Virus record (IMG/VR): IMGVR_UViG_3300045988_134682
Location: 33,707 to 97,706 of that record
DNA: 64,000 nucleotides
Source of the DNA: a virus
Reading direction: 5' to 3' (one strand)
A program made the translations under genes and the position numbers. Below are positions 3,113 through 20,288 of the stretch, piece by piece. The notes below the pieces were generated by a model that was not told where the DNA came from, ran no database searches, and was given only the letters and a program-made list of their open reading frames with translations. Each line of letters opens with the position of its first letter. Position 1 is the stretch's first letter.

Positions 3113-3141
3113 TTGATTTTTAAATAAAAATATAATATAAT
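3113..3141 (+). promoter_or_regulatory. sigma-70-like promoter of conserved family
   Basis: ttgatt 3113-3118, 17-nt spacer, tataat 3136-3141. A long (about 200 nt) leader follows before CDS 3358. Confidence 0.5.
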
Positions 3142-5828: not shown

Positions 5829-5830
5829 AC

Positions 5831-5917: not shown

Positions 5918-5930
5918 TGCTCCTAATTTT

Positions 5931-5960
5931 CCCTTCCGAGAAATCGGGAGGGATTTTTTT
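5931..5960 (+). terminator. rho-independent terminator
   Basis: cccttccgag...cgggaggg stem followed by T7. Confidence 0.55.
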
Positions 5961-6132
5961 ATGCCTTTAAAGAACGCATAATCTACTCCGGCCGGCCACA
6001 ACCATAAAGACCGAAAATCAAAATGAAAATTGCTTTTAGTATTTTTTTCCTGGGCAAAGCCGTTATATTACATTCGTGATTTTTTTAAGTGCTTATAGCA
6101 GGGAAATTTAAAAGAAAGGAGTAGCTTTATAT

Positions 6133-6312
6133 ATGATTATTACTACATCAAATAGTGGACATACTGCATATGGATTGAAAGATTATGTAATTGACAGGAA
6201 AGCTGATTTAGAAGATCTTCCAGTTGATGTTCCTATGGGCAGTACTGCTTTCTGCATTGAAGATAGTTCCGTATATATGATTAATAGCTCCAGAGAGTGG
6301 GTGGAAATCTAA
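6133..6312 (+). CDS. small hypothetical protein (59 aa)
   Basis: RBS aaaggag. Stop is adjacent to the start of the next gene (translational coupling). Confidence 0.4.
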   Translation: MIITTSNSGHTAYGLKDYVIDRKADLEDLPVDVPMGSTAFCIEDSSVYMINSSREWVEI

Positions 6313-7251
6313 ATGGCAATAGATGTTGTAACTCTTGCTCTTGCAAAAAAATATACAAAAGAATCTTTAGAGGGCGCAGGCGCTCTTAAGGGTGAAAAAG
6401 GAGACCCATTTACCTATAATGATTTCACTCCCGAACAACTTTTAGCTCTAAAAGGTGAAAATGGTATTGACGGCAAATCAGCCTATCAGCTTGCAGTTAA
6501 TAACGGTTTTGTTGGAACTGAAGCTGAATGGATTACTTCTCTAAAAGGAGAAACAGGACCGATCGGTCCAGCAGGACCGCAAGGTCAAACTGGAGAGACT
6601 GGCGCCACCGGTCCAGTAGGACCGCAAGGTGAAGTTGGACCAAAAGGCGATAGTTATCAAATTACAGAAAGCGATTATGCGGCGATTGCAGGCATGATTT
6701 CAGTCCCATCTAAGACTTCAGAATTAACTAATGATTCAAATTTTGTTAATGATATTAAATTAAATGGAGAACCTGTGGCAAATCAGAATGGCTCTATTGA
6801 TTTGCAGCTTGGTAACTTAGATACTACTCTTGGAGAGACTATTACGTGTAATCAAACAATTGGTGGTATTGCTGCTGGTACTACTTTTTCTGAAGATACT
6901 ACTCTTGCTGATATTATTAGAGCTTTATTAAAAATTCCTGTTGTTGAAACAGACGGAGCAATTTATTATGGACTATCACGTGATATTCCAAATTCTATTA
7001 ATGGATTAACTCCTGTTACCATTGATAGAGACACTCTTCTTTCTTCTGGTTATACTTATAAGAATATCAACACTGATAATCAGCGTGTTGTATTAGCTAT
7101 TCCTAAATCTTTTGGAATTGTTTGTTATCAGATTTCAGTTAGTGGATTTAGTATTGGTTTTGACTCTGTAGAAACTGATAAATATATTATCTATTATGAT
7201 GGACTCTCTACTGGTTCATTTAGATATGTATATAGTTTTGAGGAGGTTTAA
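6313..7251 (+). CDS. collagen-like repeat tail fibre protein
   Basis: Gly-X-Y run GETGPIGPAGPQGQTGETGATGPVGPQGEVGPKGD. C-terminal beta-rich domain. Confidence 0.65.
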   Translation: MAIDVVTLALAKKYTKESLEGAGALKGEKGDPFTYNDFTPEQLLALKGENGIDGKSAYQLAVNNGFVGTEAEWITSLKGETGPIGPAGPQGQTGETGATGPVGPQGEVGPKGDSYQITESDYAAIAGMISVPSKTSELTNDSNFVNDIKLNGEPVANQNGSIDLQLGNLDTTLGETITCNQTIGGIAAGTTFSEDTTLADIIRALLKIPVVETDGAIYYGLSRDIPNSINGLTPVTIDRDTLLSSGYTYKNINTDNQRVVLAIPKSFGIVCYQISVSGFSIGFDSVETDKYIIYYDGLSTGSFRYVYSFEEV

Positions 7252-7253
7252 GT

Positions 7254-7535
7254 ATGATTATTTTACCACAAGGATTTAAAGTATCATCCTCAGAACCGAT
7301 AGATGCTAGAATTCTTTTAACCAAAGAAGAAATGAAAAATATCAATCAAAATATAATGCCAAATATATATTTTGCATTATGTAAAGATGATGGAAAATTA
7401 TATTTATACAATAAAAACAACTCTTTTAATGATATTACTGGATATTTCTCTTTATATGAATCTCAGGTTTATGCAGATTCTATTACTCAAGAGGATATAG
7501 ACCTAATTATTGGAAAAATTAAAGAGGAACTATAA
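7254..7535 (+). CDS. hypothetical protein (tail module)
   Basis: ORF tightly coupled to the upstream fibre gene. Confidence 0.45.
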   Translation: MIILPQGFKVSSSEPIDARILLTKEEMKNINQNIMPNIYFALCKDDGKLYLYNKNNSFNDITGYFSLYESQVYADSITQEDIDLIIGKIKEEL

Positions 7536-7588
7536 AGAATAATATTCTTTATAAAATAAAATTTTTATTAAAAAGGAGGACATAAAAT

Positions 7589-7879
7589 ATGCCTGATATG
7601 AAGAAATTTTTAGATCAAGAAGGATTGGCTCTTTTATGGAGAAAGATTGAAGCTGAATTAAAAACTAGAGATGGCGGAATTTCAGAACTCTCTGATTTAA
7701 TTGAAGTTGTTGAAACTGCATTTAATAGTTACAAAACTTCAAATGATACTGCAGTGCAAACTAATACGACAGATATTGCTAGCGTTTCTAGACGAGTTGA
7801 TAGTATTGAAACTGAAATAAATAATGCAGAAGCATTCGAACCAATATCAGACAGTGATATTGATGCTCTTTTTGTTTAA
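7589..7879 (+). CDS. hypothetical structural protein with shared N-terminal motif (KKFLDxEGLALLW)
   Basis: RBS aaaggagg. N-terminus is paralogous to those of CDS 12708 and CDS 13618. Confidence 0.5.
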   Translation: MPDMKKFLDQEGLALLWRKIEAELKTRDGGISELSDLIEVVETAFNSYKTSNDTAVQTNTTDIASVSRRVDSIETEINNAEAFEPISDSDIDALFV

Positions 7880-8083
7880 AAAAGATATAAATATAAAAAG
7901 GAGATAAAAATTATGCCTTTATTAAAATATTTATTATCTAATCATTTAATTAAAGTAGATAGCTCTTTAATGAAAATTGATGAAAATAGAAAATGCTAAA
8001 GTGCCTGGGCTTTATGATGAAAATGATAATTTAATTAAAGCTTGGGATGAATTGGTAGCAGAAGGGCTGGTGACTGTTGAATA

Positions 8084-9460
8084 ATGCGTACTTTAAAGAG
8101 AGTAGATAAGAATTTAGCGGGTAAATTGAAGATTCCTAATAATATAACTAATATTGATAGTTTTGCTTTTAGCGGATGTAACAATTTAATATCAATAGAT
8201 ATCCCAAATAGTGTAACTCGAATTGATTCTGGTGCTTTTCAAGGTTGCAAAAATTTAACATCAATTCATCTTTCTGATAATATAACTTCTATTAATTGGG
8301 GAACTTTTGATAGTTGTAACAATTTAATATCAATAGATATCCCAAATAGTGTAACTCGAATTGGGGAGGGCGCCTTTAATTATTGTACGAGCTTAACATC
8401 AGTAAATATTCCAGATAGTGTAATTAGTATTGATAAGTTGGCTTTTAGAAATTGTAAAAAATTAACCTCAATAAATATTCCAGATGGTGTAATTAGTATT
8501 GGAGAAAAAACTTTTGAAGACTGTGCAAATTTAACTTCAATAAATATTCCAGATGGTGTGACCAATATTGGACAAGAAGCTTTTAAAAATTGTGCAAATT
8601 TAACTTCAATAAATATTCCAGATGGTGTAACTATTATTGGAGGTTCAGCTTTTGCTGGTTGCACGAATTTAACTTCAATAAATATTCCAGATAGTACTTC
8701 TGAAATTTATGTAGGAGCATTTAAAGATTGTGTAAATTTAACTTCAATTCGTTTTCCAGATGGATCAAAGTATGTTGCTGAGAGAGTTTGTGAAGGATGT
8801 TCAAACTTAACTTCTGTTGTTATAGCTGATAGTGTTGAAACAATTTATAAGTATGCTTTTTCTAAATGTTCTAATTTAATATCTATAGATATTCCTAGTA
8901 ATATAACTAAAATTAGTTCATATGCTTTTAGTGACTGTACAAATTTAACTTCAATTACTATTCCTAATAGTGCTGTTGATATTGAAATACATGCTTTTGA
9001 AAATTTACCTTATATGCCAAAAGGAACTTATGAATATAATTCTATGAAATATAAAAATGGAATATTATGTACTGGTATTTGGGAAGATGATTTATATTAC
9101 AAAGATGGAATATTAGGTACTGGTATTTATGAAGATAAATATTACAAAGATGGAGTACGTAGTATATTATTTACTGGTATTTATAATGATAAATACTATG
9201 AAAATGGTATGCTTTTCACTGGTATTAAGGACGGCCAATACTATGAAAATGGCGTACTTGCTAAACCAGCATATTCAACAATTACAGAATCTAATGGTGT
9301 TTTAGAAGTAACAGGTGATTATAAAGAAATCGCAAATGATAATGGCACAACTTTATATCTTGAAACGCTTGATGTTACTGAATCTAATGACACTTTAACG
9401 ATTAATAGTAATTATGTAAAAGAAATCCCTAACGAAAAGGGAACAACATTATATATTTAA
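8084..9460 (+). CDS. receptor-binding/adhesin-like protein: BspA-type leucine-rich repeats plus choline-type cell-wall-binding repeats
   Basis: About 12 tandem 22-aa LRRs (NLTSINIPDGVTxIGxxAFxxC). C-terminal YYKDG..TGIYEDKYY repeats resemble CW_binding_1 repeats. Confidence 0.7.
   Translation: MRTLKRVDKNLAGKLKIPNNITNIDSFAFSGCNNLISIDIPNSVTRIDSGAFQGCKNLTSIHLSDNITSINWGTFDSCNNLISIDIPNSVTRIGEGAFNYCTSLTSVNIPDSVISIDKLAFRNCKKLTSINIPDGVISIGEKTFEDCANLTSINIPDGVTNIGQEAFKNCANLTSINIPDGVTIIGGSAFAGCTNLTSINIPDSTSEIYVGAFKDCVNLTSIRFPDGSKYVAERVCEGCSNLTSVVIADSVETIYKYAFSKCSNLISIDIPSNITKISSYAFSDCTNLTSITIPNSAVDIEIHAFENLPYMPKGTYEYNSMKYKNGILCTGIWEDDLYYKDGILGTGIYEDKYYKDGVRSILFTGIYNDKYYENGMLFTGIKDGQYYENGVLAKPAYSTITESNGVLEVTGDYKEIANDNGTTLYLETLDVTESNDTLTINSNYVKEIPNEKGTTLYI
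8144..8990 (+). repeat. tandem 66-nt (22-codon) LRR-encoding repeats
   Basis: Near-identical nucleotide repeats, for example 8196-8250 versus 8319-8373. They also create a spurious antisense ORF. Confidence 0.7.
9044..9259 (+). repeat. tandem cell-wall-binding-type repeats (about 48-54 nt units)
   Basis: At least four repeats of the GTGIxxDxYYKDG motif. Confidence 0.55.
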
Positions 9461-9480
9461 TTTTAGGAAGAAAAAATATT

Positions 9481-9873
9481 ATGGCAATTAATAAAGTTAT
9501 TGTAAATGGTGAAACCAAACTTGATTTAACAGCTGATACTGCTACCGTAGATAATGTTCAAAAAGGTTTTACTTTTCATGATGCTACTGGTGTATTAAAA
9601 ACTGGAGTAGCTAATGTTGGCGGAATAGATGGTTATTATATTGAAAAGATTTTCGATGCTGATGAAATTCATAATGATAATAGTACTGTAAGTGTTGATG
9701 TTACCACAAATGGTAAGTATTGCTTCTTTTGTATCGATGAACTTAGTAGCTATATTAATATAATTGAATGGTATGACGGTAGTAATGGTTATAATAAAAC
9801 AGTATATGTTATATCTACTCAGCCCATTGAAAATCTATCATGGTATGAAAATAGTTCTTCTTCCTCTTACTAA
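9481..9873 (+). CDS. hypothetical protein (tail module)
   Basis: ORF with Ser-rich C-terminus. Confidence 0.45.
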   Translation: MAINKVIVNGETKLDLTADTATVDNVQKGFTFHDATGVLKTGVANVGGIDGYYIEKIFDADEIHNDNSTVSVDVTTNGKYCFFCIDELSSYINIIEWYDGSNGYNKTVYVISTQPIENLSWYENSSSSSY

Positions 9874-9894
9874 TTTTAACTCTATACAACATTT

Positions 9895-11550
9895 ATGTAT
9901 AAATTATCTATAATCACAATAAATAAAAATAATTCCATCGGATTAGAAAAAACAATTCAAAGTGTCATTAACCAAACGTATTTTGATAAAATAGAATATA
10001 TTATTATAGATGGGCTATCTACTGATAGCTCATCTTTTATAATAGACAAATACAAAGATTATTTTTCTTATTGGATTTCCGAAGAAGATAATGGTATTTA
10101 CGATGCAATGAATAAGGGTACTAATGCCGCCATAGGAAAGTATTTATTATTCTTAAATAGTGGAGATGTATTATATCATAATAAAATCATTGAAGAAATT
10201 TATTCAGAATTAAATACATATGATATTGTATATGGAGGCGTTGAATATGAAGGAGAAAAACATATTATTCGAATTCCTCCAGAAAAATTAGATTATATTT
10301 ATTTTTCAAAAAGACGATCAGTATTTCATCAGGGTGCTTTTATTTCTAAAAAATTATTATTAGAATTACCATACGACACTTCATATAAATTAATGGGAGA
10401 TGTAAATTTCTTTTTTAATGCAATATGTATAAAAAAAGCAACTTATAAAAGAATATTAAAAAAAATTGCTATTTTTGATATAAATGGGATATCTTCTAGA
10501 GAAGTTTATGCAAAAGAAAAAGAAAAAACTAAGATTCTATTAAATGGATTAAAATATATTGAAGACGAAAATATTAAACAAAATTTTCTAAAAAATATAA
10601 AAGTTTATAATCGACTTATTAATCAGCTTCCAATAGATTTTGTTTTTCCATATGTGGATAATTCCGATCCAAATTGGATTCAACAATATATGAACTGTTG
10701 TACTCGTCGTCGTATGAGATTTAATACAGAAGATGTTAGATATAGAGACTATGGCACTTTAAAATATCTTTTACGAGGAATTGATAAGTGTCTACCATGG
10801 ATTAGAAATATTTATATAATTGTTGAGCAAGAAAGTCAAGTGCCAAATTGGTTAAATAGAGATAATGTAAAAATAGTATATCACAAAGATATTATTCCAG
10901 AAGATTTTTTACCTACATATAATAGTGGAACTATTGAAATGTATTTAAAAAACATTCCTGAACTATCTGAATATTTTATATATGGAAATGATGATATGTT
11001 TCCTATTTCTTTAATGGATAAATCAAATTTTTTTGACGAAGATGGACTTCCTATTCTTTCAATGCAAAAATATCAAATGGAAGATAACTGGCGTCCTAAT
11101 ACATATCAATCTATGTTACTTAATTCTAATTTTATAGCTTATAATGATTTAAATCTTATAAGAGAAGATAATACAATAATAAAATGGAATCATACGATAA
11201 CTCCAATGAGGAAATCTACTTGGGAAGGATTATTTAATAGACATAGAGAAGAAATTGAAAAATCCTGTTCAACATTTAGATCTCCTAAAAATATAACTCA
11301 AGAATTAGTCAATTCATGGCATTATTTATCGGGTCAGTATAATAAAGATTATACATTAAAAGTGAATTATATTAGTATTCAAGATATAAAAAATGAAGAT
11401 ATCTTATATGAATCTATAAAAGATTATCAAGTTATTTGTATTAATGATGGTAATATAAATAAAGAAATTTTACCATTTGAAAAAATTAAAAGTATAATCT
11501 TGAATACATTTGAAAAATTATTCCCAGAAAAAAGTAAATATGAATTATAA
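9895..11550 (+). CDS. glycosyltransferase family 2 domain fused to a Stealth-family (hexose-1-phosphoryl transferase-like) domain
   Basis: N-terminus SIITINKNN...IEYIIIDGLSTD...EDNGIYDAMNKG matches GT2. Downstream IDFVFPYVDNSDPNWIQQY (Stealth CR2), RYRDYGTLKYLLRGIDKCLPWIRNIYIIV (CR3) and YGNDDMFPI (CR4). Confidence 0.65.
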   Translation: MYKLSIITINKNNSIGLEKTIQSVINQTYFDKIEYIIIDGLSTDSSSFIIDKYKDYFSYWISEEDNGIYDAMNKGTNAAIGKYLLFLNSGDVLYHNKIIEEIYSELNTYDIVYGGVEYEGEKHIIRIPPEKLDYIYFSKRRSVFHQGAFISKKLLLELPYDTSYKLMGDVNFFFNAICIKKATYKRILKKIAIFDINGISSREVYAKEKEKTKILLNGLKYIEDENIKQNFLKNIKVYNRLINQLPIDFVFPYVDNSDPNWIQQYMNCCTRRRMRFNTEDVRYRDYGTLKYLLRGIDKCLPWIRNIYIIVEQESQVPNWLNRDNVKIVYHKDIIPEDFLPTYNSGTIEMYLKNIPELSEYFIYGNDDMFPISLMDKSNFFDEDGLPILSMQKYQMEDNWRPNTYQSMLLNSNFIAYNDLNLIREDNTIIKWNHTITPMRKSTWEGLFNRHREEIEKSCSTFRSPKNITQELVNSWHYLSGQYNKDYTLKVNYISIQDIKNEDILYESIKDYQVICINDGNINKEILPFEKIKSIILNTFEKLFPEKSKYEL

Positions 11551-11565
11551 AAAAGGAGGCAAGAT

Positions 11566-12687
11566 ATGAAAGCACTAATTACTGGAATTAATGGGCAAGA
11601 TGGTTCATATCTTGCCGAGTTACTTTTATCGAAAAATTATGAAGTTCATGGAATTATTCGTAGAACATCGACGAACAATTTAAATAGAATTCAACATATT
11701 TTATCTAAAATTACTTTACATTATGGAGATTTATCAGATAGTTTGTCTTTGATAAAAATAATTCAAAATGTAAAGCCTGATGAAATATATAATCTTGCCG
11801 CACAATCAGATGTTAAGGTGTCATTCTCAACACCAGAATATACTGCTGATATTGATGCATTAGGAACTCTAAGATTACTAGAAGCGTGCAGAATTTGTGG
11901 AATAGATAAAACAGTTAAGTTTTATCAAGCCTCTACTTCTGAATTATTCGGAAAAGTAGAGGCTTTTCCACAATCCGAAACCACGCCATTTCATCCCTAT
12001 TCTCCATACGCAATTGCAAAACAATATTCGTATTGGATTGTAAAAGAATATAGAGAAGCATATAGAATGTTTGCGGTAAATGGTATTTTATTTAATCATG
12101 AATCTGAAAGACGTGGTGAAGAATTTGTAACTCGTAAGATAACAAAATCTGTAGCTCATATTATGAATGGCACACAAGACCATTTAGAATTAGGGAATTT
12201 AGATTCTTTAAGAGATTGGGGATATGCAAATGATTATGTTGAAGCAATGTGGTTAATGCTTCAAAACGATACCCCAGATGATTTTGTTATTGCTACTGCG
12301 GATGATGGCATTTTGATTAGTTCAAGAAATGATGCTGAAAAAATCAGAAATTTAATTCCACTTCATAGACCTAATTATGAAGAAAAAAGATGGGGCGCAT
12401 ATAAAGTTTTAAAACAAGATGATAATTATCTTGTTAAAGAATTAGAACTATTGCCTTATAAAGAAATATCTTATCAATCTCATAATTATAGAAAAGAAAC
12501 ATGGACTATTGTTCAAGGGTCTGGAGAAGTAATTATTGATGGTATTACTCAACAGGTAAAGTCTGGTGATATAGTCAATATAGAAATAAAACAAAAGCAT
12601 AAACTTATTGCTGGAGAAAATGGGATTAAAATTTTTGAAGTGCAAATAGGAGATGTGCTAGAAGAGTCTGATATTATTAGATATTAA
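11566..12687 (+). CDS. GDP-mannose 4,6-dehydratase-like SDR (truncated) fused to C-terminal cupin domain
   Basis: N-terminus [31 protein letters not shown] matches Gmd and runs to DDFVIATA. The last 110 aa or so ([30 protein letters not shown]) resemble a cupin beta-barrel. Confidence 0.65.
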
Positions 12688-12707
12688 AATAGAAAGGAAT
12701 TTTTATT

Positions 12708-13463
12708 ATGGCAAAAAAATTTTTAGATAACGTTGGTTTGGCAAAATATAATGCGAAAATTAAAGAATATATTGATGCTCAAAACGACGCGGTGAAACAA
12801 CTTGTTGGAGAAACACTTGTTACTGCTCAAATTGAAACTGCTATTTCTAATGCTAAGACTGAGCTTGAGAATAAGATTGGCAATATTACTGAAGGTAAAA
12901 CTCTTGTAAGTATGATTGCTGATAATGCCGCTGCAATTGAAGCTCATAAGACTGCGGTTGATACTAAAGTAACTACTTTAATTGGCTCTGATACTGACAA
13001 GTCTGTTCGTGATATTGCTAATGAGGAGTTGGCTGCTCAGTTAATTCCTGATGACGCTAAAGAATCTCTTAATACTCTGCAAGAGATCGCTAATTGGATT
13101 CAAAATCATCCTGATGATGCTTCTGCAATGAATGCAGCTATTGCAGCTTTACAAGCAAAAACTAAACTCGGAACATATATTCCAGAGGGACAAACAGAAG
13201 CTGTTGAATATGCAACGGTTGATGCTTATGTAGAAGCTATTAAAAAAAGCTTAACAACAAATATTTCTACTGAATTATCAAGTAAGATAGATGCTAATAA
13301 GGATGCTATCGATATCATTAATGGCGATAGTAATACAGAGGGTTCTATCAATAAGGCTCTTGCAGATGCAAAAGCATATGCTGATAATAAAATTCAATCT
13401 ATGACTAATGAAGAAATTGAAGCTATTATCGCTAATGCAAAAACATCTCAACCTCAATCTTAA
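12708..13463 (+). CDS. Ala-rich coiled-coil structural (fibre-like) protein with shared N-terminal motif
   Basis: N-terminus MAKKFLDNVGLAKY is paralogous to CDS 7589 and CDS 13618. Heptad-rich Ala/Glu/Lys sequence. Confidence 0.5.
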   Translation: MAKKFLDNVGLAKYNAKIKEYIDAQNDAVKQLVGETLVTAQIETAISNAKTELENKIGNITEGKTLVSMIADNAAAIEAHKTAVDTKVTTLIGSDTDKSVRDIANEELAAQLIPDDAKESLNTLQEIANWIQNHPDDASAMNAAIAALQAKTKLGTYIPEGQTEAVEYATVDAYVEAIKKSLTTNISTELSSKIDANKDAIDIINGDSNTEGSINKALADAKAYADNKIQSMTNEEIEAIIANAKTSQPQS

Positions 13464-13467
13464 CTCC

Positions 13468-13496
13468 TTGACAAAAAATTTTTTTTATGGTATAAT
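13468..13496 (+). promoter_or_regulatory. sigma-70-like promoter (TTGACA -17- TGgTATAAT)
   Basis: ttgaca 13468-13473, tataat 13491-13496. Confidence 0.5.
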
Positions 13497-13545
13497 ATAA
13501 TTATATAAGGGGGATAAAAAAGGAATTATTCCTTTTTATCCCCCT
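13497..13545 (+). other. strong leader hairpin (aagggggataaaaaagg/cctttttatccccctt) followed by T-run, between promoter and CDS 13618
   Basis: Roughly 16-bp stem immediately after the -10 element, followed by tattttttaag. Attenuator-like or terminator-like. Confidence 0.45.
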
Positions 13546-13617
13546 TATATTTTTTAAGAAAATAATTCTAAAATAAAAATCTTTTATCTTAAGAAGTTAG
13601 TAAAAGGAGGATAAAGT

Positions 13618-13929
13618 ATGGCAGCATCTAAAAAAATTTTAGATGAAAATGGATTATTAGCATTATGGCATCAAATTGAAAATAATTTTATTTCATCTGA
13701 GAATATTGAACAAATTGTTTATGCAATTGAGTCAATTAAAGCAGATAAAGATTCTCCTGAATTTACAGGAATTCCAATTGCTCCAACCGCAAGTCCAAAT
13801 ACAAATACCACACAAATTGCAACTACTGAATTTGTTAATACTGCTATTGCTGAATTAAGTGCATTATTTTCTTCTTACAAAGAGCAAGTAGATAATGCTT
13901 TAGCAGAGATAAAAAATAAAATAGGCTAA
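13618..13929 (+). CDS. hypothetical structural protein with shared N-terminal motif
   Basis: RBS aaaaggagg. N-terminus MAASKKILDENGLLALWHQIE. Confidence 0.5.
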   Translation: MAASKKILDENGLLALWHQIENNFISSENIEQIVYAIESIKADKDSPEFTGIPIAPTASPNTNTTQIATTEFVNTAIAELSALFSSYKEQVDNALAEIKNKIG

Positions 13930-13967
13930 ATAGATATTTTATATCTATTTAGCCTATTTTATTTTTT
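13924..13967 (+). terminator. rho-independent terminator
   Basis: ggctaaatagatat/atatctatttagcc stem followed by a T-rich run. Overlaps the stop codon. Confidence 0.65.
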
Positions 13968-13968: not shown

Positions 13969-13997
13969 TTGATTTTTTATAAAAAATATATTATAAT
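13969..13997 (+). promoter_or_regulatory. conserved-family promoter
   Basis: ttgatt 13969-13974, 17-nt spacer, tataat 13992-13997, then atatatagaaaatgag. Confidence 0.55.
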
Positions 13998-14030
13998 ATA
14001 TATAGAAAATGAGAAAGAGGATAAATAAAA

Positions 14031-14840
14031 ATGAAAGATATTAGCTATTATTGGGCAGATAAATCTCAAAGAGCAATTATTGCACAAGAGCATACTAAGC
14101 AAATGAATGAGCAATTTGCTAGTGAGATTGCGGAAAGTGTAATGAATAGTAAAATTTATAGCAAAGATTTTAAAGCAACAACGCCCGCAAGAAATTTAGA
14201 GGAAGCAGATATTGCTCTTGATGCTGTTGGAAGTGTTGAAGCTATTGTAGCTTGCGATTCTACAGATGGAAAAGTTGCGGTTCTTAATTTCGCTTCATAT
14301 AAAAATCCTGGCGGAATGTTTATTAATGGGTCTCGTGCTCAGGAAGAATGTCTGTGCCATGAATCTTTTCTTTACAACGTATTAAGCCAAATTCCAAATT
14401 ATTATGATTGGAATGAAAAACACAAGAATCGTGCTTTATATGAGAATAGAGCAATTTATTCTCCAAATATCAGATTTGAGCATTCTGGCATTGAAAAATA
14501 CTGCGATGTAATTACTTGCGCCGCACCTAATTTTACTGCCGCTGCAAAGTATTGCAACGTAGATAGAAAAGAAAATAAAAAAGTTCTTGAATCAAGAATT
14601 CGATTCGTTTTTGAAGTAGCAAAACAGAATCAGGTTGATACTCTCATTTTAGGGGCTTTTGGATGCGGAGTGTTTGGACAGAATGCAGATGATGTTGCAG
14701 AAATTTTTATCAATCTGTTAGTTACAGATTATGCAACTGAATTTAAGAAAGTAATTTTCGCAATTCCGATTATCAATAATGATTCTATCAATTACAGTAA
14801 ATTTCAGAATATGTTTGATGAATTGTTAGAGGAGAATTAA
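14031..14840 (+). CDS. PARG-like macrodomain protein (DUF2263 / bacterial-type poly(ADP-ribose) glycohydrolase family)
   Basis: Signature NFASYKNPGGMFINGSRAQEECLC (GGG-x6-8-QEE) and glycine-rich ILGAFGCGVFGQN diphosphate-binding loop. Confidence 0.6.
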   Translation: MKDISYYWADKSQRAIIAQEHTKQMNEQFASEIAESVMNSKIYSKDFKATTPARNLEEADIALDAVGSVEAIVACDSTDGKVAVLNFASYKNPGGMFINGSRAQEECLCHESFLYNVLSQIPNYYDWNEKHKNRALYENRAIYSPNIRFEHSGIEKYCDVITCAAPNFTAAAKYCNVDRKENKKVLESRIRFVFEVAKQNQVDTLILGAFGCGVFGQNADDVAEIFINLLVTDYATEFKKVIFAIPIINNDSINYSKFQNMFDELLEEN

Positions 14841-14841: not shown

Positions 14842-15051
14842 ATGAATTCTTTTACTATCACAATTACAAATTGCCTTGATTGTCCAGACCATGATGTTCG
14901 TCCTATTTACACTCCAGATTCTTGGGACCATGAGGAAGGATGTTATTGTAAACTTGCTAAAGATGTAAATGGATATGACAAATTAGTTGCAGGAGACGAT
15001 TGGCATTTAAGAAGATATACTGACATTCCAGATTGGTGTCCAAAATTATGA
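14842..15051 (+). CDS. small Cys-rich hypothetical protein
   Basis: CLDCPDH...CYC...WCP pattern. Start overlaps the upstream stop. Confidence 0.4.
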   Translation: MNSFTITITNCLDCPDHDVRPIYTPDSWDHEEGCYCKLAKDVNGYDKLVAGDDWHLRRYTDIPDWCPKL

Positions 15052-15356
15052 CGTATATTTCTGAATATTTTTATAGTAATTGCTTAATCGAAGCTATTAA
15101 AGCTAAGATTAAGCATCCTATAAAAGTAAAAATAAAATATATTCCAGCAAGATTAAATGAAGTATTTTGTCCGCATTTAATGTGGCATGATGGTGAATAT
15201 ACTTATGATTTTTGGGCTTGCGGGCATTTAAAGCCATATCAAATTTTATGGCATAAAGGTAAGATAAGAAAAAACGAATATGATTATTATGATAAATGTA
15301 TAAAAACTTTAAAAGAATGGAAAGAAAGAGGTAAACAAGATGCCGGTAAGAGATGA
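15033..15356 (+). CDS. hypothetical protein
   Basis: ORF overlapping both neighbours (operonic). Confidence 0.4.
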   Translation: MVSKIMTYISEYFYSNCLIEAIKAKIKHPIKVKIKYIPARLNEVFCPHLMWHDGEYTYDFWACGHLKPYQILWHKGKIRKNEYDYYDKCIKTLKEWKERGKQDAGKR

Positions 15357-16215
15357 TTTAGGTACTCGTATGAAAACCTTTTATGAAAATATTCCTAAAA
15401 CTCGACTTATGAGAAGAGTTCCAGTAGCAATTAGGCTGGACGGCAAGGCGTTTCATACTTTTACAAGAGGTTTTCAAAAGCCATTTGATTTTGTGCTAAT
15501 GGATACAATGCAACAAACAATGAAATATTTATGTGAAAATATTCAAGGATGTGTATTGGGATATACTCAGTCTGATGAGATTACATTGATTCTTGTTGAT
15601 TATAAGAAATTAAATTCTGCTGCATGGTTTGATTATGAAGTTCAGAAAATGTGCAGTATCGCAGCAAGTATGGCTACAATGGCGTTTAATAGATTTTTCA
15701 TGTATGAATATGAAGAGTTTAATAGATGGGTTAATGAAGGAAATCCAACAGATGAAGATAGACGATTAAATGATATTTATTATGATGCGATGTGTAAAGG
15801 TGCAATGTTTGATGCACGTTGTTTCAATATTCCAAAAGAAGAAGTAACTAACCTCATTTATTGGCGGCAACTTGATGCAACAAGAAATAGTATTCAAATG
15901 GTTGGACAAGCTCATTTTTCACATGATGAGCTTCAAGATAAAACTTGTAATATGATTCAAGATATGTTAATGACCAAGTATGGCATTAACTGGAATGATT
16001 TTACAACACCATGTAAACGAGGCACTGCATGTATTAGAATTGGAAAAAAAGTAACTGAAAATATCAAAAGAGAACCTCAACCTTTTGGAGAAGATAAAGT
16101 TACAACTACAATTATTGAAGAAAGACCTATCTGGGTTATTGACAAGAATATGCCTATTTTAAAAGGCGAAGACCGCAAATATGTTGATGATTTAATTTAC
16201 ATAGGAGAAGAATAA
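15340..16215 (+). CDS. Thg1-like protein (tRNA-His guanylyltransferase family, 3'-5' nucleotidyltransferase)
   Basis: VPVAIRLDGKAFHTFTRGFQKPFD...VLGYTQSDEITLIL aligns with the Thg1/TLP core motifs (RxDG+xFHxF, KPxD, YGQSDE). Confidence 0.75.
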   Translation: MPVRDDLGTRMKTFYENIPKTRLMRRVPVAIRLDGKAFHTFTRGFQKPFDFVLMDTMQQTMKYLCENIQGCVLGYTQSDEITLILVDYKKLNSAAWFDYEVQKMCSIAASMATMAFNRFFMYEYEEFNRWVNEGNPTDEDRRLNDIYYDAMCKGAMFDARCFNIPKEEVTNLIYWRQLDATRNSIQMVGQAHFSHDELQDKTCNMIQDMLMTKYGINWNDFTTPCKRGTACIRIGKKVTENIKREPQPFGEDKVTTTIIEERPIWVIDKNMPILKGEDRKYVDDLIYIGEE

Positions 16216-16368
16216 ATGATAAGAGGATATAGCATTTCTGAAGAGGATATTGATAGAGTAATGCCTTTTGTAAGAGGTGTGATTCATGAACTTGAAGTCA
16301 GTATTTCTATGTATTATTGCGGATATACAGGAGAAATTTCTTTGGGTATTTGTGAGGAGGAATGCTAA
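16216..16368 (+). CDS. small hypothetical protein (50 aa)
   Basis: Start adjacent to the upstream stop. Overlaps the next start. Confidence 0.3.
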   Translation: MIRGYSISEEDIDRVMPFVRGVIHELEVSISMYYCGYTGEISLGICEEEC

Positions 16369-16796
16369 TGGGGTGTAATTATGATATTACAAAAGTGAAT
16401 AAATTATTTAATTTGGCAGTTCAATATTATCCTAAGAAAAAATTAGTTCATGCTTTGCGGGTTGCTGAATATGCGACCGCAAAAGCCAGTGCTTTAAAAA
16501 TTGATACAGTAAAGACTTATATGATCGCCTTAGCGCACGATTTGTTAGAGGATACTGAATGTCCAAAAGAAGATTTAATGTCTATTTTAGGTATAGAGAG
16601 TTATAATTCAGTAGTTCTTTTAACTAAAGATGCACAAGAAAAATATGAAGATTATATTCATAAGATTCTTGATGCAGGAGATGACTATGCTTTTGTTGTT
16701 AAACAGGCAGATATGAAAGACCATATGACTTTAACTGATACACTTACAGAAAAATTGCTGGATAAATATATTCCTGTATTGCATTATTTCTTATAA
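16362..16796 (+). CDS. HD-domain phosphohydrolase (YfbR/DatZ-like dNTPase or Mesh1/SpoT-like hydrolase)
   Basis: H...HALRVA...ALAHDLLEDT motif (H, HD, D metal ligands). Confidence 0.55.
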   Translation: MLMGCNYDITKVNKLFNLAVQYYPKKKLVHALRVAEYATAKASALKIDTVKTYMIALAHDLLEDTECPKEDLMSILGIESYNSVVLLTKDAQEKYEDYIHKILDAGDDYAFVVKQADMKDHMTLTDTLTEKLLDKYIPVLHYFL

Positions 16797-17258: not shown

Positions 17259-18080
17259 ATGGCAGATCTTAATACAATAACTAAAGCGGCTAGTGGTATT
17301 CAAGAGCATTATCTTGAATCTAAACAATACTTTGCTAAGAATAATATTGTAGGTATTTTTCTACAAGGTAGTCAGAATTATGGTCTTGAAACTGAAGATT
17401 CTGATATTGATACAAAACTTATTACCACTCCAACATTAAATGATTTAATTTATAACCGAAAACCTATGTCTACAACTCATTTTAGGGCTAATGGGGAACA
17501 TATTGATTTTAAAGATATTAGGCTTATGTTTGATACTTTCCGCAAACAGAATCTAAATTTTATTGAGATTCTGTTCACTAATTATAAAATCATCAATCCA
17601 ATGTATGAAAAAGAGTGGAATAAATTGATTGCGGAAAATGAAGTTATTGCACATTATAATCCTTATTTCGCAGTAAAAGCTATGTCTGGCATTGCTCTTG
17701 GAAAAAGATATGCTCTTACTAAAGAAACAGAAGCTCATAAAGGAACCTTTGAAAAGTTTAATTATGACCCAAAACAGCTTTATCAGCTTGTGAGAATTGA
17801 TGAATATCTCGATAAATATATTGCTGGAGCGCCATATAAAGAATGTTTGTGTCCAGCTAACCCGCAATATTTAAAAGACATTAAAACTGGTCTTTATTCA
17901 AAAGAAGAAGCTATTAAAGTTGCAGATGAACATATGACTCATATTGATAAAATTTGTGCCCCATATACAAAAGATTCTGAATTTAACTACATTGATGAAG
18001 AAGCTGAAAATCTTCTGCAAGAAGTCCAAGCGGAAATTATGAAGAAAAGTATTGCTTTTGAATTGGAGGAAAAGAAATGA
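17259..18080 (+). CDS. Pol-beta-superfamily nucleotidyltransferase-domain protein
   Basis: GSQNYGLETEDSDID (GS-x10-DxD) motif near the N-terminus. Helical C-terminal domain. Confidence 0.5.
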   Translation: MADLNTITKAASGIQEHYLESKQYFAKNNIVGIFLQGSQNYGLETEDSDIDTKLITTPTLNDLIYNRKPMSTTHFRANGEHIDFKDIRLMFDTFRKQNLNFIEILFTNYKIINPMYEKEWNKLIAENEVIAHYNPYFAVKAMSGIALGKRYALTKETEAHKGTFEKFNYDPKQLYQLVRIDEYLDKYIAGAPYKECLCPANPQYLKDIKTGLYSKEEAIKVADEHMTHIDKICAPYTKDSEFNYIDEEAENLLQEVQAEIMKKSIAFELEEKK

Positions 18081-18865
18081 TTAAACAGTTTTTTGTAACA
18101 GGAGATACACATGGCTGTATGGATCGTTTTACATGGCTTGAAATACAAAATCCAAAAGAGACTGGTATTATTATCTTAGGAGATGCAGGTGTAAATTTTT
18201 ATAAAAGTGCGGCAAGGCAACATGATATTAAGATGCAACTTGAACAATATGGATGTACATTTTATTTGGTAAGGGGGAATCATGAGGCTCGTCCAGAAGA
18301 TGTTAAAGGCATTGAAGAGGTTTGGGATGATGATGTTGCGAATTATGTTTTCATTGAACCCGGTTATCCTCATATCCATTATCTTATGGATGGCTCTAAT
18401 TATGATTTTCTTGGTCATAATACACTTGTAATAGGTGGAGCTTATTCTGTGGATAAATGGTATAGACTTGAAAATCATTATACTTGGTATCCAAACGAAC
18501 AATTAACAGAAGCAGAAATGCAGGCTATTGAAGCAATGTATGCGGGACAAAGTTTTGATTTTGTTTTTACTCATACTTGTCCATTAAGCTGGGAACCAAC
18601 TGACTTATTTTTATCTATGATTGACCAGTCTACTGTAGATGATTCTATGGAAGTTTGGCTTGATTCTTTTAAAGATAAGATTAATTGGGGCGTTTGGCTG
18701 TTTGGTCACTTTCACGCAGATAGAATGGAGCGCCCGCATGTTGAACAATATTTTAAAGCAATCGAAGATTTAGAAGAGATATGGAAAAGATGGAATGATC
18801 CAAATTATTTACTTCCAACTTATTTTAGAAAATCTCCTAATTTTAATAAAGGAAAAACTGAATAA
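18077..18865 (+). CDS. calcineurin-like metallophosphoesterase
   Basis: Motifs GDTHG, GDAG, GNHE and GHFH. Confidence 0.65.
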   Translation: MIKQFFVTGDTHGCMDRFTWLEIQNPKETGIIILGDAGVNFYKSAARQHDIKMQLEQYGCTFYLVRGNHEARPEDVKGIEEVWDDDVANYVFIEPGYPHIHYLMDGSNYDFLGHNTLVIGGAYSVDKWYRLENHYTWYPNEQLTEAEMQAIEAMYAGQSFDFVFTHTCPLSWEPTDLFLSMIDQSTVDDSMEVWLDSFKDKINWGVWLFGHFHADRMERPHVEQYFKAIEDLEEIWKRWNDPNYLLPTYFRKSPNFNKGKTE

Positions 18866-19140: not shown

Positions 19141-19959
19141 ATGAAATATTTTATTGACTTTGAAGCAATGCAGTTTTCCAATTATATTATTTCTGTTGGA
19201 TGTGTTCGAGAAGATGGAAAAGAATTTTATTCTCTTGTACATACCCCAGAGAATACAAATAAGAATGTTTCTAAGTTTATCACTGATTTAACAGGTATTA
19301 CTACAGAAATGGTTGAGGCAGCTCCTTCTCCAGAAGAGGTATTCAATGAGTTTTTTGATTTTTGTTTTGAAGATTGCGGCGATGACATTCCTGAATTTTA
19401 TTGTTATGGGAATTGTGATACAGATTTTATCAAAGCAACCTTCCGCAAAACAAATAGTTTTAAAGCAAAAGCAATTCTTGGTTATATGAATACAGATATG
19501 AAAGATTTTGCTCCTGCTGTTAAGGTTCATTTTGGCTTAATCAAACTGATTAACCTCGCTAAAGTTTGCGAATATTTTAGAGGAGAAGAGGTTGTTCAGA
19601 CTCATAATTCTCTTGACGATGCAAAGATGTTAAAAGAAGTTTATGAAGGCTGTAAAAATGAAAAAGCTTCTGAAGTAGATGCAAATGTCTTTATGGAGTA
19701 TAAGGAAATTACAACCGACCAGATTGAATATGAAGATACTCGTTTTGATGTTTTTTGTTGCCCTACTAAAAATTTTGAAGAAGAAAGAACTAAGAAATTT
19801 GAAAATCTTAAAGAAGCAGTTGAATACGTTAAATCATATGATAAGAGCATGAGAAATAATCCGACTGTAAATGTCCACAATATTGCCAAAAGGATTAAAA
19901 AATCCTATAATACAAAGAAACAGTACAACTTCTACTATTGGAAATTTGAGGTGAAATAA
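19141..19959 (+). CDS. DEDDh 3'-5' exonuclease (DnaQ/epsilon-like), candidate proofreading subunit or RNA exonuclease
   Basis: Exo I FIDFEA, Exo II ...YGNCDTDF region and Exo III HNSLDDAKML motifs. Confidence 0.6.
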   Translation: MKYFIDFEAMQFSNYIISVGCVREDGKEFYSLVHTPENTNKNVSKFITDLTGITTEMVEAAPSPEEVFNEFFDFCFEDCGDDIPEFYCYGNCDTDFIKATFRKTNSFKAKAILGYMNTDMKDFAPAVKVHFGLIKLINLAKVCEYFRGEEVVQTHNSLDDAKMLKEVYEGCKNEKASEVDANVFMEYKEITTDQIEYEDTRFDVFCCPTKNFEEERTKKFENLKEAVEYVKSYDKSMRNNPTVNVHNIAKRIKKSYNTKKQYNFYYWKFEVK

Positions 19960-20288
19960 TGATTAAACTTTGGATTGATGATATGCGGCCCGCGCCAGAT
20001 GAATCTTATATTTGGATTAAGAGTGTTTGGGATGCAGAAATGTGTCTTACTACTCTTGTAAGACCAGAAGGAGACATTCTTGAAGTTAATGAAATTAATT
20101 TAGATCATGATGCTGGTGAATATTATGAAAAAGGCGGAGATTATATTAAAATTCTTGATTGGCTTGAATGTTGCCAAAGACTGCGTGGCTGGCATATTTA
20201 TGCAACTTTTAAATTTCATAGTATGAATCCTGTTGGAGTTCAAAATATGAAAAGAGTTTGTAAGGAAGCTGGTTGGAGAATTGAGTAA
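19959..20288 (+). CDS. hypothetical protein
   Basis: Coupled ORF. Confidence 0.4.
   Translation: MIKLWIDDMRPAPDESYIWIKSVWDAEMCLTTLVRPEGDILEVNEINLDHDAGEYYEKGGDYIKILDWLECCQRLRGWHIYATFKFHSMNPVGVQNMKRVCKEAGWRIE

What the first reader, a model, noticed from the sequence alone, without database searches (positions are those of the whole stretch)
14031..14840. PARG-like macrodomain (DUF2263) as candidate anti-defence ADP-ribose hydrolase
The GGG-x-QEE signature and the glycine-rich diphosphate loop place this protein with bacterial PARG-type macrodomains. A phage-encoded enzyme of this kind could reverse ADP-ribosylation of DNA, RNA or protein by host toxins (DarT-like or ART effectors). It is the first gene of the accessory island, right after a promoter.
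Basis: partly seen in the sequence, partly recalled or inferred. Interest (0 to 1): 0.6.

Follow-up and report, generated by a model that had tools for sequence, protein, structure and literature searches.

The report
Phage PARG-type ADP-ribose hydrolase gene
A large human-gut phage carries an intact bacterial-type poly(ADP-ribose) glycohydrolase gene at the head of a block of RNA-repair genes, so it probably strips ADP-ribose off damaged RNA, though nobody has tested any phage copy of this known enzyme family.

Summary
The ORF at 14031-14840 (+, 269 aa) is real and is a bacterial-type PARG. It matches TIGR02452 at 3.8e-60 over its full length and PF10021 at 7.6e-30. An AlphaFold model (pLDDT 90) superposes on the T. 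curvata and D. radiodurans PARGs at TM 0.77-0.84.

The Gln-Glu-Glu catalytic triplet (Q104-E105-E106) and the diphosphate loop (G208-G216) are intact. The "GGG" is actually G94-G95-M96, which is the norm in this clade.

It is not DarG-like. No ADP-ribosyltransferase was found in the window.

The window comes from a ~195 kb human-gut phage contig. The gene follows a strong terminator hairpin and a promoter-like site. It is translationally coupled to a conserved block of Thg1-like, HD, nucleotidyltransferase, metallophosphoesterase, RNase T-like, cREC and RNA ligase genes.

In other phage lineages the PARG sits directly beside an RNA ligase, a kinase-HD gene or a Thg1-like gene. This mirrors the D. 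radiodurans ligase-PARG-kinase/HD operon.

Best reading: an RNA-directed de-ADP-ribosylase within a phage RNA-repair toolkit. This reading is inferred, not shown. Viral homologues are already annotated in databases. Verdict: a new member of a known kind, of moderate interest.

The parts
13916..13962 (.). Perfect 20-bp-stem palindromic hairpin followed by a T-run on both strands. It acts as a terminator-like boundary overlapping the stop of the upstream ORF 13618-13929.
   Evidence: 8 terminator-like sites in the region against 0.6 expected from shuffles. Sequence read.
13969..13997 (+). Sigma-70-like promoter candidate, TTGATT-17 nt-TATAAT (10 of 12 matches), 34 nt upstream of the start codon.
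   Evidence: The match is weak as statistics, because promoter-like sites are not enriched in this AT-rich region (15 against 12.3).
14015..14021 (+). Ribosome-binding site AAGAGGA, 9 nt before the ATG.
   Evidence: Read directly from the sequence.
14031..14840 (+). Coding sequence of the bacterial-type PARG macrodomain protein (269 aa).
14310..14348 (+). Codons for the catalytic loop G94-G95-M96-x7-Q104-E105-E106. This is the PARG signature, and E105/E106 correspond to the T. curvata Glu-Glu dyad.
   Evidence: Alignment to 3sig and to the E115A mutant 3sij. The residues are invariant in the 43-sequence alignment.
14652..14678 (+). Codons for the diphosphate-binding loop G208-A-F-G-C-G-V-F-G216.
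14842..15051 (+). 69-aa Cys-rich protein (CxxC...WCPKL, phrog_29585). Its start lies 1 nt after the PARG stop, and its GAGGAG ribosome-binding site lies inside the PARG 3' end.
   Evidence: A similar small protein sits next to PARG in two other phage lineages.
15033..15356 (+). ~101-107-aa protein of unknown function that overlaps both neighbours. The metagenome gene call begins 15 nt downstream of the TTG ORF start listed here and gives 102 aa. It is conserved in related phages.
15340..16215 (+). Thg1-like 3'-5' nucleotidyltransferase, a predicted tRNA 5'-end repair enzyme.
   Evidence: PF04446 at 2.9e-28 and phrog_4717 at 2.4e-83.
16362..16796 (+). HD-domain phosphohydrolase.
   Evidence: PF01966 at 1.4e-4 and phrog_990 at 6.4e-17.
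17259..18080 (+). Pol-beta-type nucleotidyltransferase.
   Evidence: phrog_388 at 3.9e-18. The PF18765 match is weak.
18077..18865 (+). Calcineurin-like metallophosphoesterase.
   Evidence: PF00149 at 2.7e-8 and phrog_1649 at 1.4e-22. It lies within 10 kb of PARG in 8 of 17 viral lineages.
19141..19959 (+). RNase T-like 3'-5' exonuclease.
   Evidence: PF00929 at 2.6e-16.
19959..20288 (+). cREC domain protein, a predicted cyclic-phosphate processing enzyme.
   Evidence: PF20274 at 6.4e-13. The role is a prediction made in PMC7824862 and PMC9503650.
21302..22492 (+). RNA ligase with a PHA02142 OB-fold plus an RNA_ligase domain.
   Evidence: PF21189 at 7.2e-22 and PF09414 at 1.7e-20.

Best explanation
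The gene encodes a catalytically intact bacterial-type poly(ADP-ribose) glycohydrolase, a macrodomain with an N-terminal helical extension. It belongs to a ~195 kb phage of human-gut Firmicutes; the host assignment is inferred.

The gene is transcribed from its own start site after a terminator. It is translationally coupled to a conserved, co-directional block of RNA end-healing and sealing genes.

The most likely job is to hydrolyse ADP-ribose attached to RNA. Candidate linkages are the ribose 2'-OH, which is the same C1''-O-2' linkage as in poly(ADP-ribose), and terminal 5'-phosphates. Removing these adducts would undo damage by host ADP-ribosyltransferase toxins or defence enzymes. It would also hand clean ends to the Thg1-like enzyme, the phosphoesterases and the RNA ligase.

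Shown here: family membership, conserved active-site residues, fold, transcription-unit layout and recurrent gene neighbourhood. Inferred: the substrate (RNA) and the biological role (counter-defence or repair).
For: Family and active site:
- TIGR02452 at 3.8e-60 and PF10021 at 7.6e-30.
- phmmer gives 2.6e-23 to T. curvata PARG, and the clade profile gives 1.3e-38 to D. radiodurans PARG.
- The AlphaFold model has pLDDT 90 and pTM 0.90. It matches 3sih at TM 0.83 and 5zde at 0.77-0.84, while all other macrodomains score about 0.5 or lower.
- G94, G95, Q104, E105, E106 and G208-G216 are invariant across the 43-sequence alignment.

Context in this phage and its close relatives:
- The order PARG, 69 aa, ~100 aa, Thg1-like, HD, NTase, metallophosphoesterase, RNase T, cREC, RNA ligase is kept in phages whose PARG is 83% and 64% identical. 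The DNA upstream of PARG differs between them.

Context in more distant carriers (PARG about 50% identical):
- L017 has PARG, RNA ligase, then kinase+HD directly adjacent.
- L098 has HD, PARG, Thg1-like, metallophosphoesterase, RNA ligase contiguous, with PARG and the Thg1-like match overlapping by 2 nt.
- L094 has RtcB-like, Thg1-like, PARG.
- L029, L034 and L079 have NTase, metallophosphoesterase, PARG and RNase T in that order, preceded by HD in L029 and L034. L029 and L034 also have the RNA ligase after RNase T.
- An RNA ligase of this architecture lies within 10 kb in 7 of 17 viral lineages.

Literature:
- Bacterial PARGs SCO0909 and DRB0099 reverse RhsP2 2'-OH RNA ADP-ribosylation and 5'-phosphate-end ADP-ribosylation, and they protect E. 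coli from the toxin.
- DRB0099 sits in a ligase-PARG-HD/kinase operon (PMC11833690). This is the same trio as in L017.
Against: No experiment, and no host toxin, was identified. In most viral lineages, including the largest with 39 loci, the immediate neighbours are small unknown genes rather than RNA-repair genes.

Among 80 bacterial genome loci only three show RNA-repair neighbours, and no partner is conserved overall.

In large phages, RNA-repair, nucleotide-metabolism and other auxiliary genes share one genome region, so co-location may reflect shared timing rather than shared pathway. Lineages related by descent are also not independent observations.

In the window the ligase is 7.3 kb away and the kinase about 16 kb away. 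Phage G and Lak phage copies show no such neighbours.
Confidence: 0.45

Rival explanations
1. It is a classical protein de-ADP-ribosylase. On this reading it trims poly- or mono-ADP-ribose from proteins modified by a host PARP-like enzyme or ART toxin, freeing phage or host proteins from that modification.
For: This is the founding activity of the family: T. curvata, H. aurantiacus and D. radiodurans PARGs hydrolyse PAR (PMC8120803, PMC6445106). The closest cellular homologues are in Clostridia (Lachnospiraceae, Blautia, Acetatifactor). Some Clostridia are reported to encode PARP, PARG and MacroD sets (PMC8120803).
Against: No PARP or ART was found in the window. PARGs are poor at removing the protein-proximal unit; this point rests on my own knowledge of the family. 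The recurrent neighbours are RNA enzymes, not protein-modification enzymes.
Confidence: 0.2
2. It processes small ADP-ribose metabolites. Candidates are by-products of NAD+-dependent RNA repair (ADP-ribose 1''-phosphate after cREC action) or products of host NADases, with the released ADP-ribose fed into NAD+ salvage.
For: A cREC gene lies in the same block at 19959-20288. cREC and Macro domains are predicted to act in series on ADPr>P (PMC7824862, PMC9503650). In three viral lineages and two bacterial loci a nicotinamidase-type isochorismatase lies 0.8-3 kb from PARG. The phage also has an NAD+-dependent DNA ligase.
Against: No KptA/Tpt1 or sirtuin that would generate ADPr>P was detected in the window. 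The known Appr-1''-p phosphatases belong to other macrodomain classes; this point rests on my own knowledge. The conserved Glu-Glu dyad is a glycohydrolase feature, not a phosphatase feature.
Confidence: 0.15
3. It is the partner of a phage-encoded ADP-ribosyltransferase located outside the window. On this reading it limits or reverses the phage's own modification of host targets.
For: Large phages often carry ARTs together with Macro or NADAR domains (PMC9503650). About 130 kb of this phage lies outside the window and could not be read.
Against: No ART domain was found in the 64 kb window or within 10 kb of PARG in related loci by the searches made. No conserved unknown partner gene emerged across 17 viral lineages.
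Confidence: 0.1
4. It is an orphan DarG-like antitoxin that removes DarT-type ADP-ribose from thymidine or guanosine in phage DNA.
For: Phages do carry orphan antitoxin-like hydrolases against DarTG1 (PMC11825919).
Against: Those known phage enzymes are NADAR-like, and DarG is a TARG1/ALC1-class macrodomain. This protein matches neither. It has no PADLOC hit, and no DarG structure appears among the 50 best Foldseek matches. In assays with synthetic thymidine-ADPr, robust activity came from DarG and TARG1, not PARG (PMC12879935). NADARs, not PARGs, reverse guanosine adducts (PMC11833690).
Confidence: 0.05

Closest known systems
Thermomonospora curvata PARG (PDB 3SIG/3SIH; DUF2263/TIGR02452 prototype)
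   Same: It shares the macrodomain fold with an N-terminal helical extension (TM 0.83). It shares the QEE catalytic triplet and the GxGxGVFG diphosphate loop in register, and is of similar length.
   Different: Identity is only 28-30%. The third Gly of the GGG motif is Met here. By ungapped extrapolation, the position of the ribose-cap Arg268 is Asn254 and that of its Asp261 partner is Ile247, so the Arg-Asp cap that makes TcPARG an obligate exo-enzyme is probably absent. This is an inference and PMC6445106. The clade also has a Cys/His-rich catalytic-loop flank, QEECLCH.
Deinococcus radiodurans PARG DRB0099 and its DRB0100-DRB0099-DRB0098 operon
   Same: It gives the best profile match (1.3e-38) with TM 0.77-0.84, and it has a non-Arg residue at the cap position. 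The operon combines a ligase, PARG and an HD/polynucleotide-kinase gene (PMC11833690). The same trio is directly adjacent in phage locus L017, and the components are present in this window. DRB0099 reverses RNA 2'-OH and 5'-phosphate ADP-ribosylation (PMC11833690).
   Different: It is cellular and DNA-damage induced. In the window the ligase and kinase are 7 and 16 kb away rather than adjacent. The phage block adds Thg1-like, NTase, metallophosphoesterase, RNase T and cREC genes.
Viral 'microbial-type PARG' proteins already in databases (Bacillus phage G gp114, Lak megaphages, giant viruses such as Bodo saltans virus and Harvfovirus)
   Same: They have the same family and fold. tblastn identity is 38-43% for the phages, and Foldseek TM against BFVD entries is 0.70-0.78. 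All are uncharacterised.
   Different: They come from different hosts and contexts. Phage G gp114 and the Lak-A1 copy show none of the window's RNA-repair genes within 10 kb by tblastn. No PHROG family covers the window protein.
DarG macrodomain antitoxin / TARG1 class
   Same: It belongs to the macrodomain superfamily and hydrolyses ADP-ribose adducts on nucleic acid.
   Different: It is a different macrodomain class with different catalytic residues. There was no sequence or top structural match here, and no adjacent DarT.

Membership tests
Bacterial-type PARG (TIGR02452 / PF10021 / DUF2263) | Scores above the curated family thresholds over most of the protein's length | tested here: met
   TIGR02452 scores 203.6 bits against a cutoff of 50, covering residues 14-259 of 269. 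PF10021 scores 104.7 bits against a cutoff of 23.5.
Bacterial-type PARG (TIGR02452 / PF10021 / DUF2263) | Catalytic Gln-Glu-Glu of the PARG signature, aligned with the Glu-Glu dyad of T. curvata PARG (E115 is the residue mutated in 3SIJ) and with E112 of DrPARG | tested here: met
   Q104-E105-E106 align with the QEE of 3sig. The 3sij E115A chain shows the substitution at the second Glu. The residues are invariant in 43 homologues. The structure-based match confirms the fold in which they sit.
Bacterial-type PARG (TIGR02452 / PF10021 / DUF2263) | GGG of the GGG-X6-8-QEE signature | tested here: inconclusive
   The sequence is G94-G95-M96 followed by 7 residues and then QEE. The first two Gly are invariant. 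The third is Met in 73 of 81 viral copies and in the clade consensus. The effect on activity is unknown.
Bacterial-type PARG (TIGR02452 / PF10021 / DUF2263) | Glycine-rich diphosphate-binding loop | tested here: met
   L207-G-A-F-G-C-G-V-F-G216 aligns with LGAWGCGVFG in both solved PARGs.
Bacterial-type PARG (TIGR02452 / PF10021 / DUF2263) | Macrodomain fold with an N-terminal helical extension, closest to the solved bacterial PARGs | tested here: met
   The AF2 model has pLDDT 90 with helices at 11-28 and 30-39. Foldseek gives 3sih at E 2.4e-19 and TM 0.83, and 5zde at TM 0.77/0.83. The next class of macrodomains scores TM about 0.5 or lower. This rests on a predicted, not solved, structure.
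Bacterial-type PARG (TIGR02452 / PF10021 / DUF2263) | C-terminal ribose cap (Arg268-Asp261 in TcPARG) that restricts the enzyme to exo-cleavage | tested here: inconclusive
   HMM alignments stop just before this segment. Ungapped extension using the DrPARG sequence given in PMC6445106 puts N254 at the Arg268/Thr267 position and I247 at the Asp position.
Bacterial-type PARG (TIGR02452 / PF10021 / DUF2263) | Hydrolysis of the ribose-ribose O-glycosidic bond (PAR or 2'-OH RNA-ADPr) | not testable with these tools
   This needs an enzyme assay.
DarG-type (TARG1/ALC1-class) macrodomain antitoxin | Sequence or structural membership of the DarG macrodomain class | tested here: not met
   There is no PADLOC-DB match at E <= 0.01. 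The 13 best structural matches are all bacterial PARGs, and no DarG structure is among the 50 best.
DarG-type (TARG1/ALC1-class) macrodomain antitoxin | Adjacent DarT-type ADP-ribosyltransferase gene | tested here: not met
   The neighbours are a 69-aa Cys-rich protein, a ~100-aa unknown protein and a Thg1-like protein. No ART domain was found in the window.
Ligase-PARG-kinase/HD nucleic-acid repair module (D. radiodurans DRB0100-0098 type) | PARG gene directly linked to an RNA/DNA ligase and a polynucleotide kinase/HD phosphatase gene | tested here: inconclusive
   The feature is met in relatives: L017 has PARG, RNA ligase, then AAA_33 kinase+HD, and L098 has HD, PARG, Thg1-like, MPE and RNA ligase. 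In the window the components are present but spread out: HD at +2.3 kb, RNA ligase at +7.3 kb, and AAA_33 kinase with Metallophos_2 at about +16 kb.
Phage anti-defence protein (functional class) | Demonstrated neutralisation of a host defence system or toxin | not testable with these tools
   No host, defence system or phenotype is available. Only precedent from cellular PARGs exists (PMC11833690).

The most novel reading that the evidence does not exclude
The enzyme may destroy a host immune signal rather than a macromolecular adduct. The Thoeris messenger 1''-2' glycocyclic ADP-ribose is closed by a ribose C1''-O-2' ribose glycosidic bond, the same type of bond that PARGs cut in poly(ADP-ribose). 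A phage PARG could therefore linearise the messenger to ADP-ribose and act as an enzymatic anti-Thoeris factor; the known phage counters are sponges.

This rests on chemistry alone. Nothing in the gene neighbourhood points to it. No paper in the searched library mentions gcADPR and PARG together.
Probability: 0.06. Interest if true: 0.8.

Novelty: new member of a known kind. Interest (0 to 1): 0.4.

Why it matters
The papers I found describe no assay of a phage-encoded bacterial-type PARG. The family is nevertheless common in large gut phages: 213 relatives were found in one viral collection.

If the RNA-repair reading holds, phage RNA-repair toolkits include a step that removes ADP-ribose. 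That would imply that RNA ADP-ribosylation by host toxins or defences is a routine hazard for gut phages.

The recurrent pairing with Thg1-like enzymes and RNA ligases gives a concrete, cheap set of assays. If the reading fails, the gene is simply one more auxiliary macrodomain in a large phage.

Tried and rejected
- PHROGs gave no family for the protein, and PADLOC gave none.
- Megablast of 10 kb around the gene against 50,697 phage records found only a 109-bp GDP-mannose dehydratase match, so there is no close cultured relative.
- I looked for an ART, KptA/Tpt1, sirtuin or PARP partner in the window, using precomputed Pfam calls and direct hmmscan of unannotated ORFs. None was found. The remaining ~130 kb of the phage could not be reached.
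- De novo clustering of neighbours in 80 bacterial genome loci found no conserved partner. The largest non-PARG cluster covered 7 loci. My crude ORF calling recovered a PARG ORF in only 59 of the 80 loci.
- Conservation of QEE and of the LGAxGC loop among the IMG/VR and GTDB loci is partly forced, because those motifs were the search patterns. I therefore rely on the HMMER-collected set for conservation.
- I wanted to check in the model whether C107, C109, H110 and C163 cluster as a metal site, and where N254 sits. Model coordinates are not exposed.
- Two literature searches failed on term syntax.
- DarT reversal was rejected as the leading idea, for the reasons given under the rival explanations.
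Full report
**The object**

The ORF at 14031-14840 on the + strand starts with ATG and encodes 269 aa. A ribosome-binding site, AAGAGGA, lies 9 nt upstream.

A perfect 20-bp-stem hairpin with T-runs at 13916-13962 overlaps the stop of the preceding ORF. Terminator-like sites number 8 in the region against 0.6 expected. A TTGATT-17-TATAAT site follows at 13969-13997. Promoter-like sites as a class are not enriched in this 32% GC DNA (15 against 12.3), so the terminator is the stronger evidence for a transcription-unit boundary.

The PARG stop is followed 1 nt later by the start of a 69-aa gene, whose GAGGAG ribosome-binding site lies inside the PARG 3' end. The next two genes overlap each other. 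PARG therefore appears translationally coupled to the genes downstream, through the Thg1-like gene.

**Family assignment**

- Pfam PF10021 (microbial-type PARG catalytic domain) matches at 7.6e-30.
- NCBIfam TIGR02452 matches at 3.8e-60 over nearly the full length.
- Against solved structures by sequence, the only hits are the T. curvata PARG (2.6e-23) and the D. radiodurans PARG (1e-21). A clade profile raises the latter to 1.3e-38.
- An AlphaFold2 model built on 43 homologues has mean pLDDT 90 and pTM 0.90.
- Foldseek against the PDB puts 13 bacterial PARG entries first, at TM 0.74-0.84. Other macrodomains follow at TM about 0.5 or lower.

In the alignments, Q104-E105-E106 coincide with the QEE of T. 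curvata PARG. The E115A mutant chain 3sij shows its substitution at the second Glu. L207-GAFGCGVFG-216 coincides with the diphosphate loop.

The "GGG" is G94-G95-M96. Met is the consensus of this clade and occurs in 73 of 81 viral copies.

The dyad is present, so that test does not refute the assignment.

The C-terminal ribose-cap position could not be aligned by HMM. An ungapped extension, using DrPARG sequence recovered from PMC6445106, puts Asn254 where T. curvata has Arg268 and D. radiodurans has Thr267. It puts Ile247 at the partner Asp position. This suggests there is no Arg-Asp cap, but it is an inference.

**Source of the window**

The exact protein is encoded on a 194,726-bp contig from a human gut metagenome (ENA ERZ919639). 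All genes run on one strand.

The window holds four tRNA genes. It also holds SPbeta-type YorF/YorH genes, DnaB, gyrase A and B, an NAD+-dependent DNA ligase, a split DNA polymerase III alpha, PhoH-PIN and a lysozyme. It is a large phage, most likely of Firmicutes.

No cultured phage is close at the DNA level.

**Relatives**

The protein database holds more than 5,500 homologues. The nearest are 98%, 83% and 64% identical, on contigs of up to 170-195 kb. A broad cloud at about 50-58% follows; the one taxon label among the listed hits is Lachnospiraceae.

IMG/VR holds 213 relatives on viral contigs, many of 100-220 kb. I grouped the best 80 into 17 lineages at 85% PARG identity.

GTDB genomes hold at least 570 relatives, led by Acetatifactor, Blautia and other Lachnospiraceae, followed by Coriobacteriia.

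Among deposited phage genomes, the Lak megaphages (38-43% identity) and Bacillus phage G gp114 (38%) carry unannotated copies. BFVD lists 'microbial-type PARG' proteins in giant viruses and a few phages.

So viral copies are known to databases. The papers I found describe no assay of any of them.

**Gene neighbourhood**

In the 83% and 64% relatives the downstream order is kept: PARG, 69 aa, ~100 aa, Thg1-like, HD, nucleotidyltransferase, metallophosphoesterase, RNase T-like, cREC and RNA ligase. The upstream DNA differs completely between them.

In 94-96% relatives the DUF2828 gene lies only 2.8-5.9 kb upstream of PARG, against 10.7 kb in the window. The island-like, variable DNA is therefore upstream, and PARG opens the conserved block.

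Further afield, where PARG is about 50% identical:
- L017 has PARG, then an RNA ligase (PHA02142 OB-fold plus RNA_ligase), then an AAA_33 kinase-HD protein, all directly adjacent.
- L098 has HD, PARG, Thg1-like, metallophosphoesterase and RNA ligase contiguous.
- L094 has RtcB-like, Thg1-like and PARG.
- L029, L034 and L079 have the nucleotidyltransferase, metallophosphoesterase, PARG and RNase T-like genes in that order, preceded by HD in L029 and L034. L029 and L034 also have the RNA ligase after RNase T.

Within 10 kb of PARG, the metallophosphoesterase occurs in 8 of 17 lineages and the kinase-HD gene in 5. An RNA ligase of this architecture occurs in 7, counting the window's own.

Against this, the largest lineage (39 loci) mostly shows small unknown neighbours. 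Bacterial loci show no conserved partner. Phage G and Lak-A1 show none of these genes nearby.

The association is recurrent but not universal, and phage lineages are not independent samples.

**What the literature adds**

PMC11833690 (2025) shows that two bacterial-type PARGs, SCO0909 and DRB0099, are the only hydrolases tested that remove RhsP2-installed ADP-ribose from RNA 2'-OH. This linkage is chemically identical to the PAR backbone. The same enzymes also clear ADP-ribose from 5'-phosphate ends, and they protect E. coli from the toxin.

That paper also notes that DRB0099 lies between a ligase and an HD/polynucleotide-kinase gene. The phage loci found here reproduce that trio.

PMC7824862 and PMC9503650 predict, on comparative grounds, that phage Macro and cREC domains work either in NAD+-linked RNA repair or on soluble ADP-ribose derivatives.

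PMC12879935 finds robust thymidine-ADPr hydrolysis by DarG and TARG1, with only low activity from ARH3 and MACROD2. PARG was not named among the active human hydrolases in the passages read.

**Mechanism proposed**

Host ADP-ribosyltransferase toxins or defence enzymes modify RNA at 2'-OH groups or terminal phosphates. The phage PARG, expressed from its own promoter together with end-repair enzymes, hydrolyses the C1'' linkage using E105/E106 and releases ADP-ribose. The Thg1-like enzyme, phosphoesterases, nucleotidyltransferase and RNA ligase then restore tRNA or other RNA.

The enzyme class, the intact active site, the transcription layout and the neighbourhoods are shown. The substrate and the conflict role are inferred. 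I put this reading at 0.45.

**Rivals**

| Rival | Confidence | Main point |
|---|---|---|
| Protein de-PARylation | 0.2 | The family's classic activity, but no ART was seen and the neighbours are RNA enzymes |
| Small ADP-ribose metabolites or NAD+ salvage | 0.15 | Supported by cREC, by a nicotinamidase-like neighbour in some lineages and by the phage NAD+-dependent ligase; no KptA or sirtuin was found |
| Partner of a phage ART outside the window | 0.1 | Untestable here |
| DarT reversal | 0.05 | Wrong macrodomain class |

**Comparison and novelty**

The protein is a member of the bacterial-type PARG family on every feature that could be tested. The exceptions are the literal third glycine and the unresolved cap.

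It works like, and in some relatives is arranged like, the D. radiodurans repair operon. It is not a DarG.

The result is a new member of a known kind. Interest is moderate (0.4).

The enzyme class and its RNA activity are published, and viral copies are catalogued. A phage copy embedded in an RNA-repair block with a Thg1-like enzyme is, however, an untested and readily testable lead.

Noticed in passing
window 5700-13930: A hypervariable cargo region lies between the DUF2828 gene (3358-4881) and PARG. In the window it holds a collagen-like protein (6313-7251), a BspA-type leucine-rich-repeat protein (8084-9460, LRR_5 at 1.5e-93), a Stealth-type glycosyltransferase (9895-11550), a GDP-mannose dehydratase fused to a cupin/mannose-6-P-isomerase domain (11566-12687) and two short proteins. 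One of these, 13618-13929, carries tail-fibre motifs. In phages with 94-96% identical PARG, DUF2828 is only 2.8-5.9 kb upstream, and in the 83% and 64% relatives the region holds different genes.
   Followed up: partly
window 13468-13550: A perfect consensus promoter, TTGACA-17-TATAAT with a TG extension (12 of 12), lies at 13468-13496. It is followed immediately by a 20-bp-stem hairpin at 13503-13550. Both lie ahead of the 103-aa ORF 13618-13929, which matches only the conserved motif of phage tail-fibre families.
   Followed up: no
window 14842-15051; L033/L036/L041 at -258 from PARG; L021 at -973: A small Cys-rich protein with a CxxC...WCP(L/K) pattern lies directly beside PARG in three separate viral lineages: downstream in the window's lineage, and upstream in lineage 0 (17 of 39 loci) and lineage 4 (1 of 5). 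It could be a partner, or just a common small phage gene.
   Followed up: partly
window 14349-14360 and 14517-14519 (residues C107, C109, H110, C163): This PARG clade has near-invariant Cys and His residues flanking the catalytic triplet (QEE-C-L-C-H) and in the TCAAPN strand. T. curvata has G, A and R at the three loop positions and S at the strand position. A metal or redox site is conceivable, but I could not check geometry.
   Followed up: no
L048 10995-11519, L043 (+1700 from PARG), L093 (-942), L156 (-3134): An isochorismatase-family protein (PF00857 at 2.6e-29; the nicotinamidase reading is my own inference) lies 0.8-3 kb from PARG in three viral lineages and two bacterial loci. This hints at a link to nicotinamide/NAD+ recycling.
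   Followed up: partly
window 1489-4881: Four tRNA genes (Leu-TAA, Gly-TCC, Lys-TTT, Cys-GCA) lie next to a 507-aa DUF2828+DUF7788 protein. That protein co-occurs within 10 kb of PARG in 7 of 17 viral lineages. From memory, DUF2828 is related to the TROVE/Ro60 RNA-binding module, which would fit the RNA-repair theme. I did not test this.
   Followed up: no
window 59728-64000; L003 11439-13327: Homing endonucleases interrupt essential genes. A GIY-YIG gene (62099-62824) sits between two DNA polymerase III alpha fragments in the window. In the 64% relative, a LAGLIDADG gene sits just before a Thg1-like gene whose N-terminal 48 residues match in a separate piece.
   Followed up: no
L171 (Bacillus phage G 56268-76924): The PARG homologue gp114 has no product annotation in the GenBank record. 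It lies about 5.5 kb downstream of a nine-tRNA cluster and 3.4 kb upstream of gp122, a second macrodomain annotated as 'Appr-1-p processing domain'.
   Followed up: no
window 28094-32783: Auxiliary genes lie downstream of the repair block: adenylosuccinate synthetase (28094-29272), an AAA_33 kinase overlapping a Metallophos_2 phosphoesterase (about 29942-30936, a possible split polynucleotide kinase-phosphatase) and a Band_7/flotillin-like protein (31251-32783).
   Followed up: no
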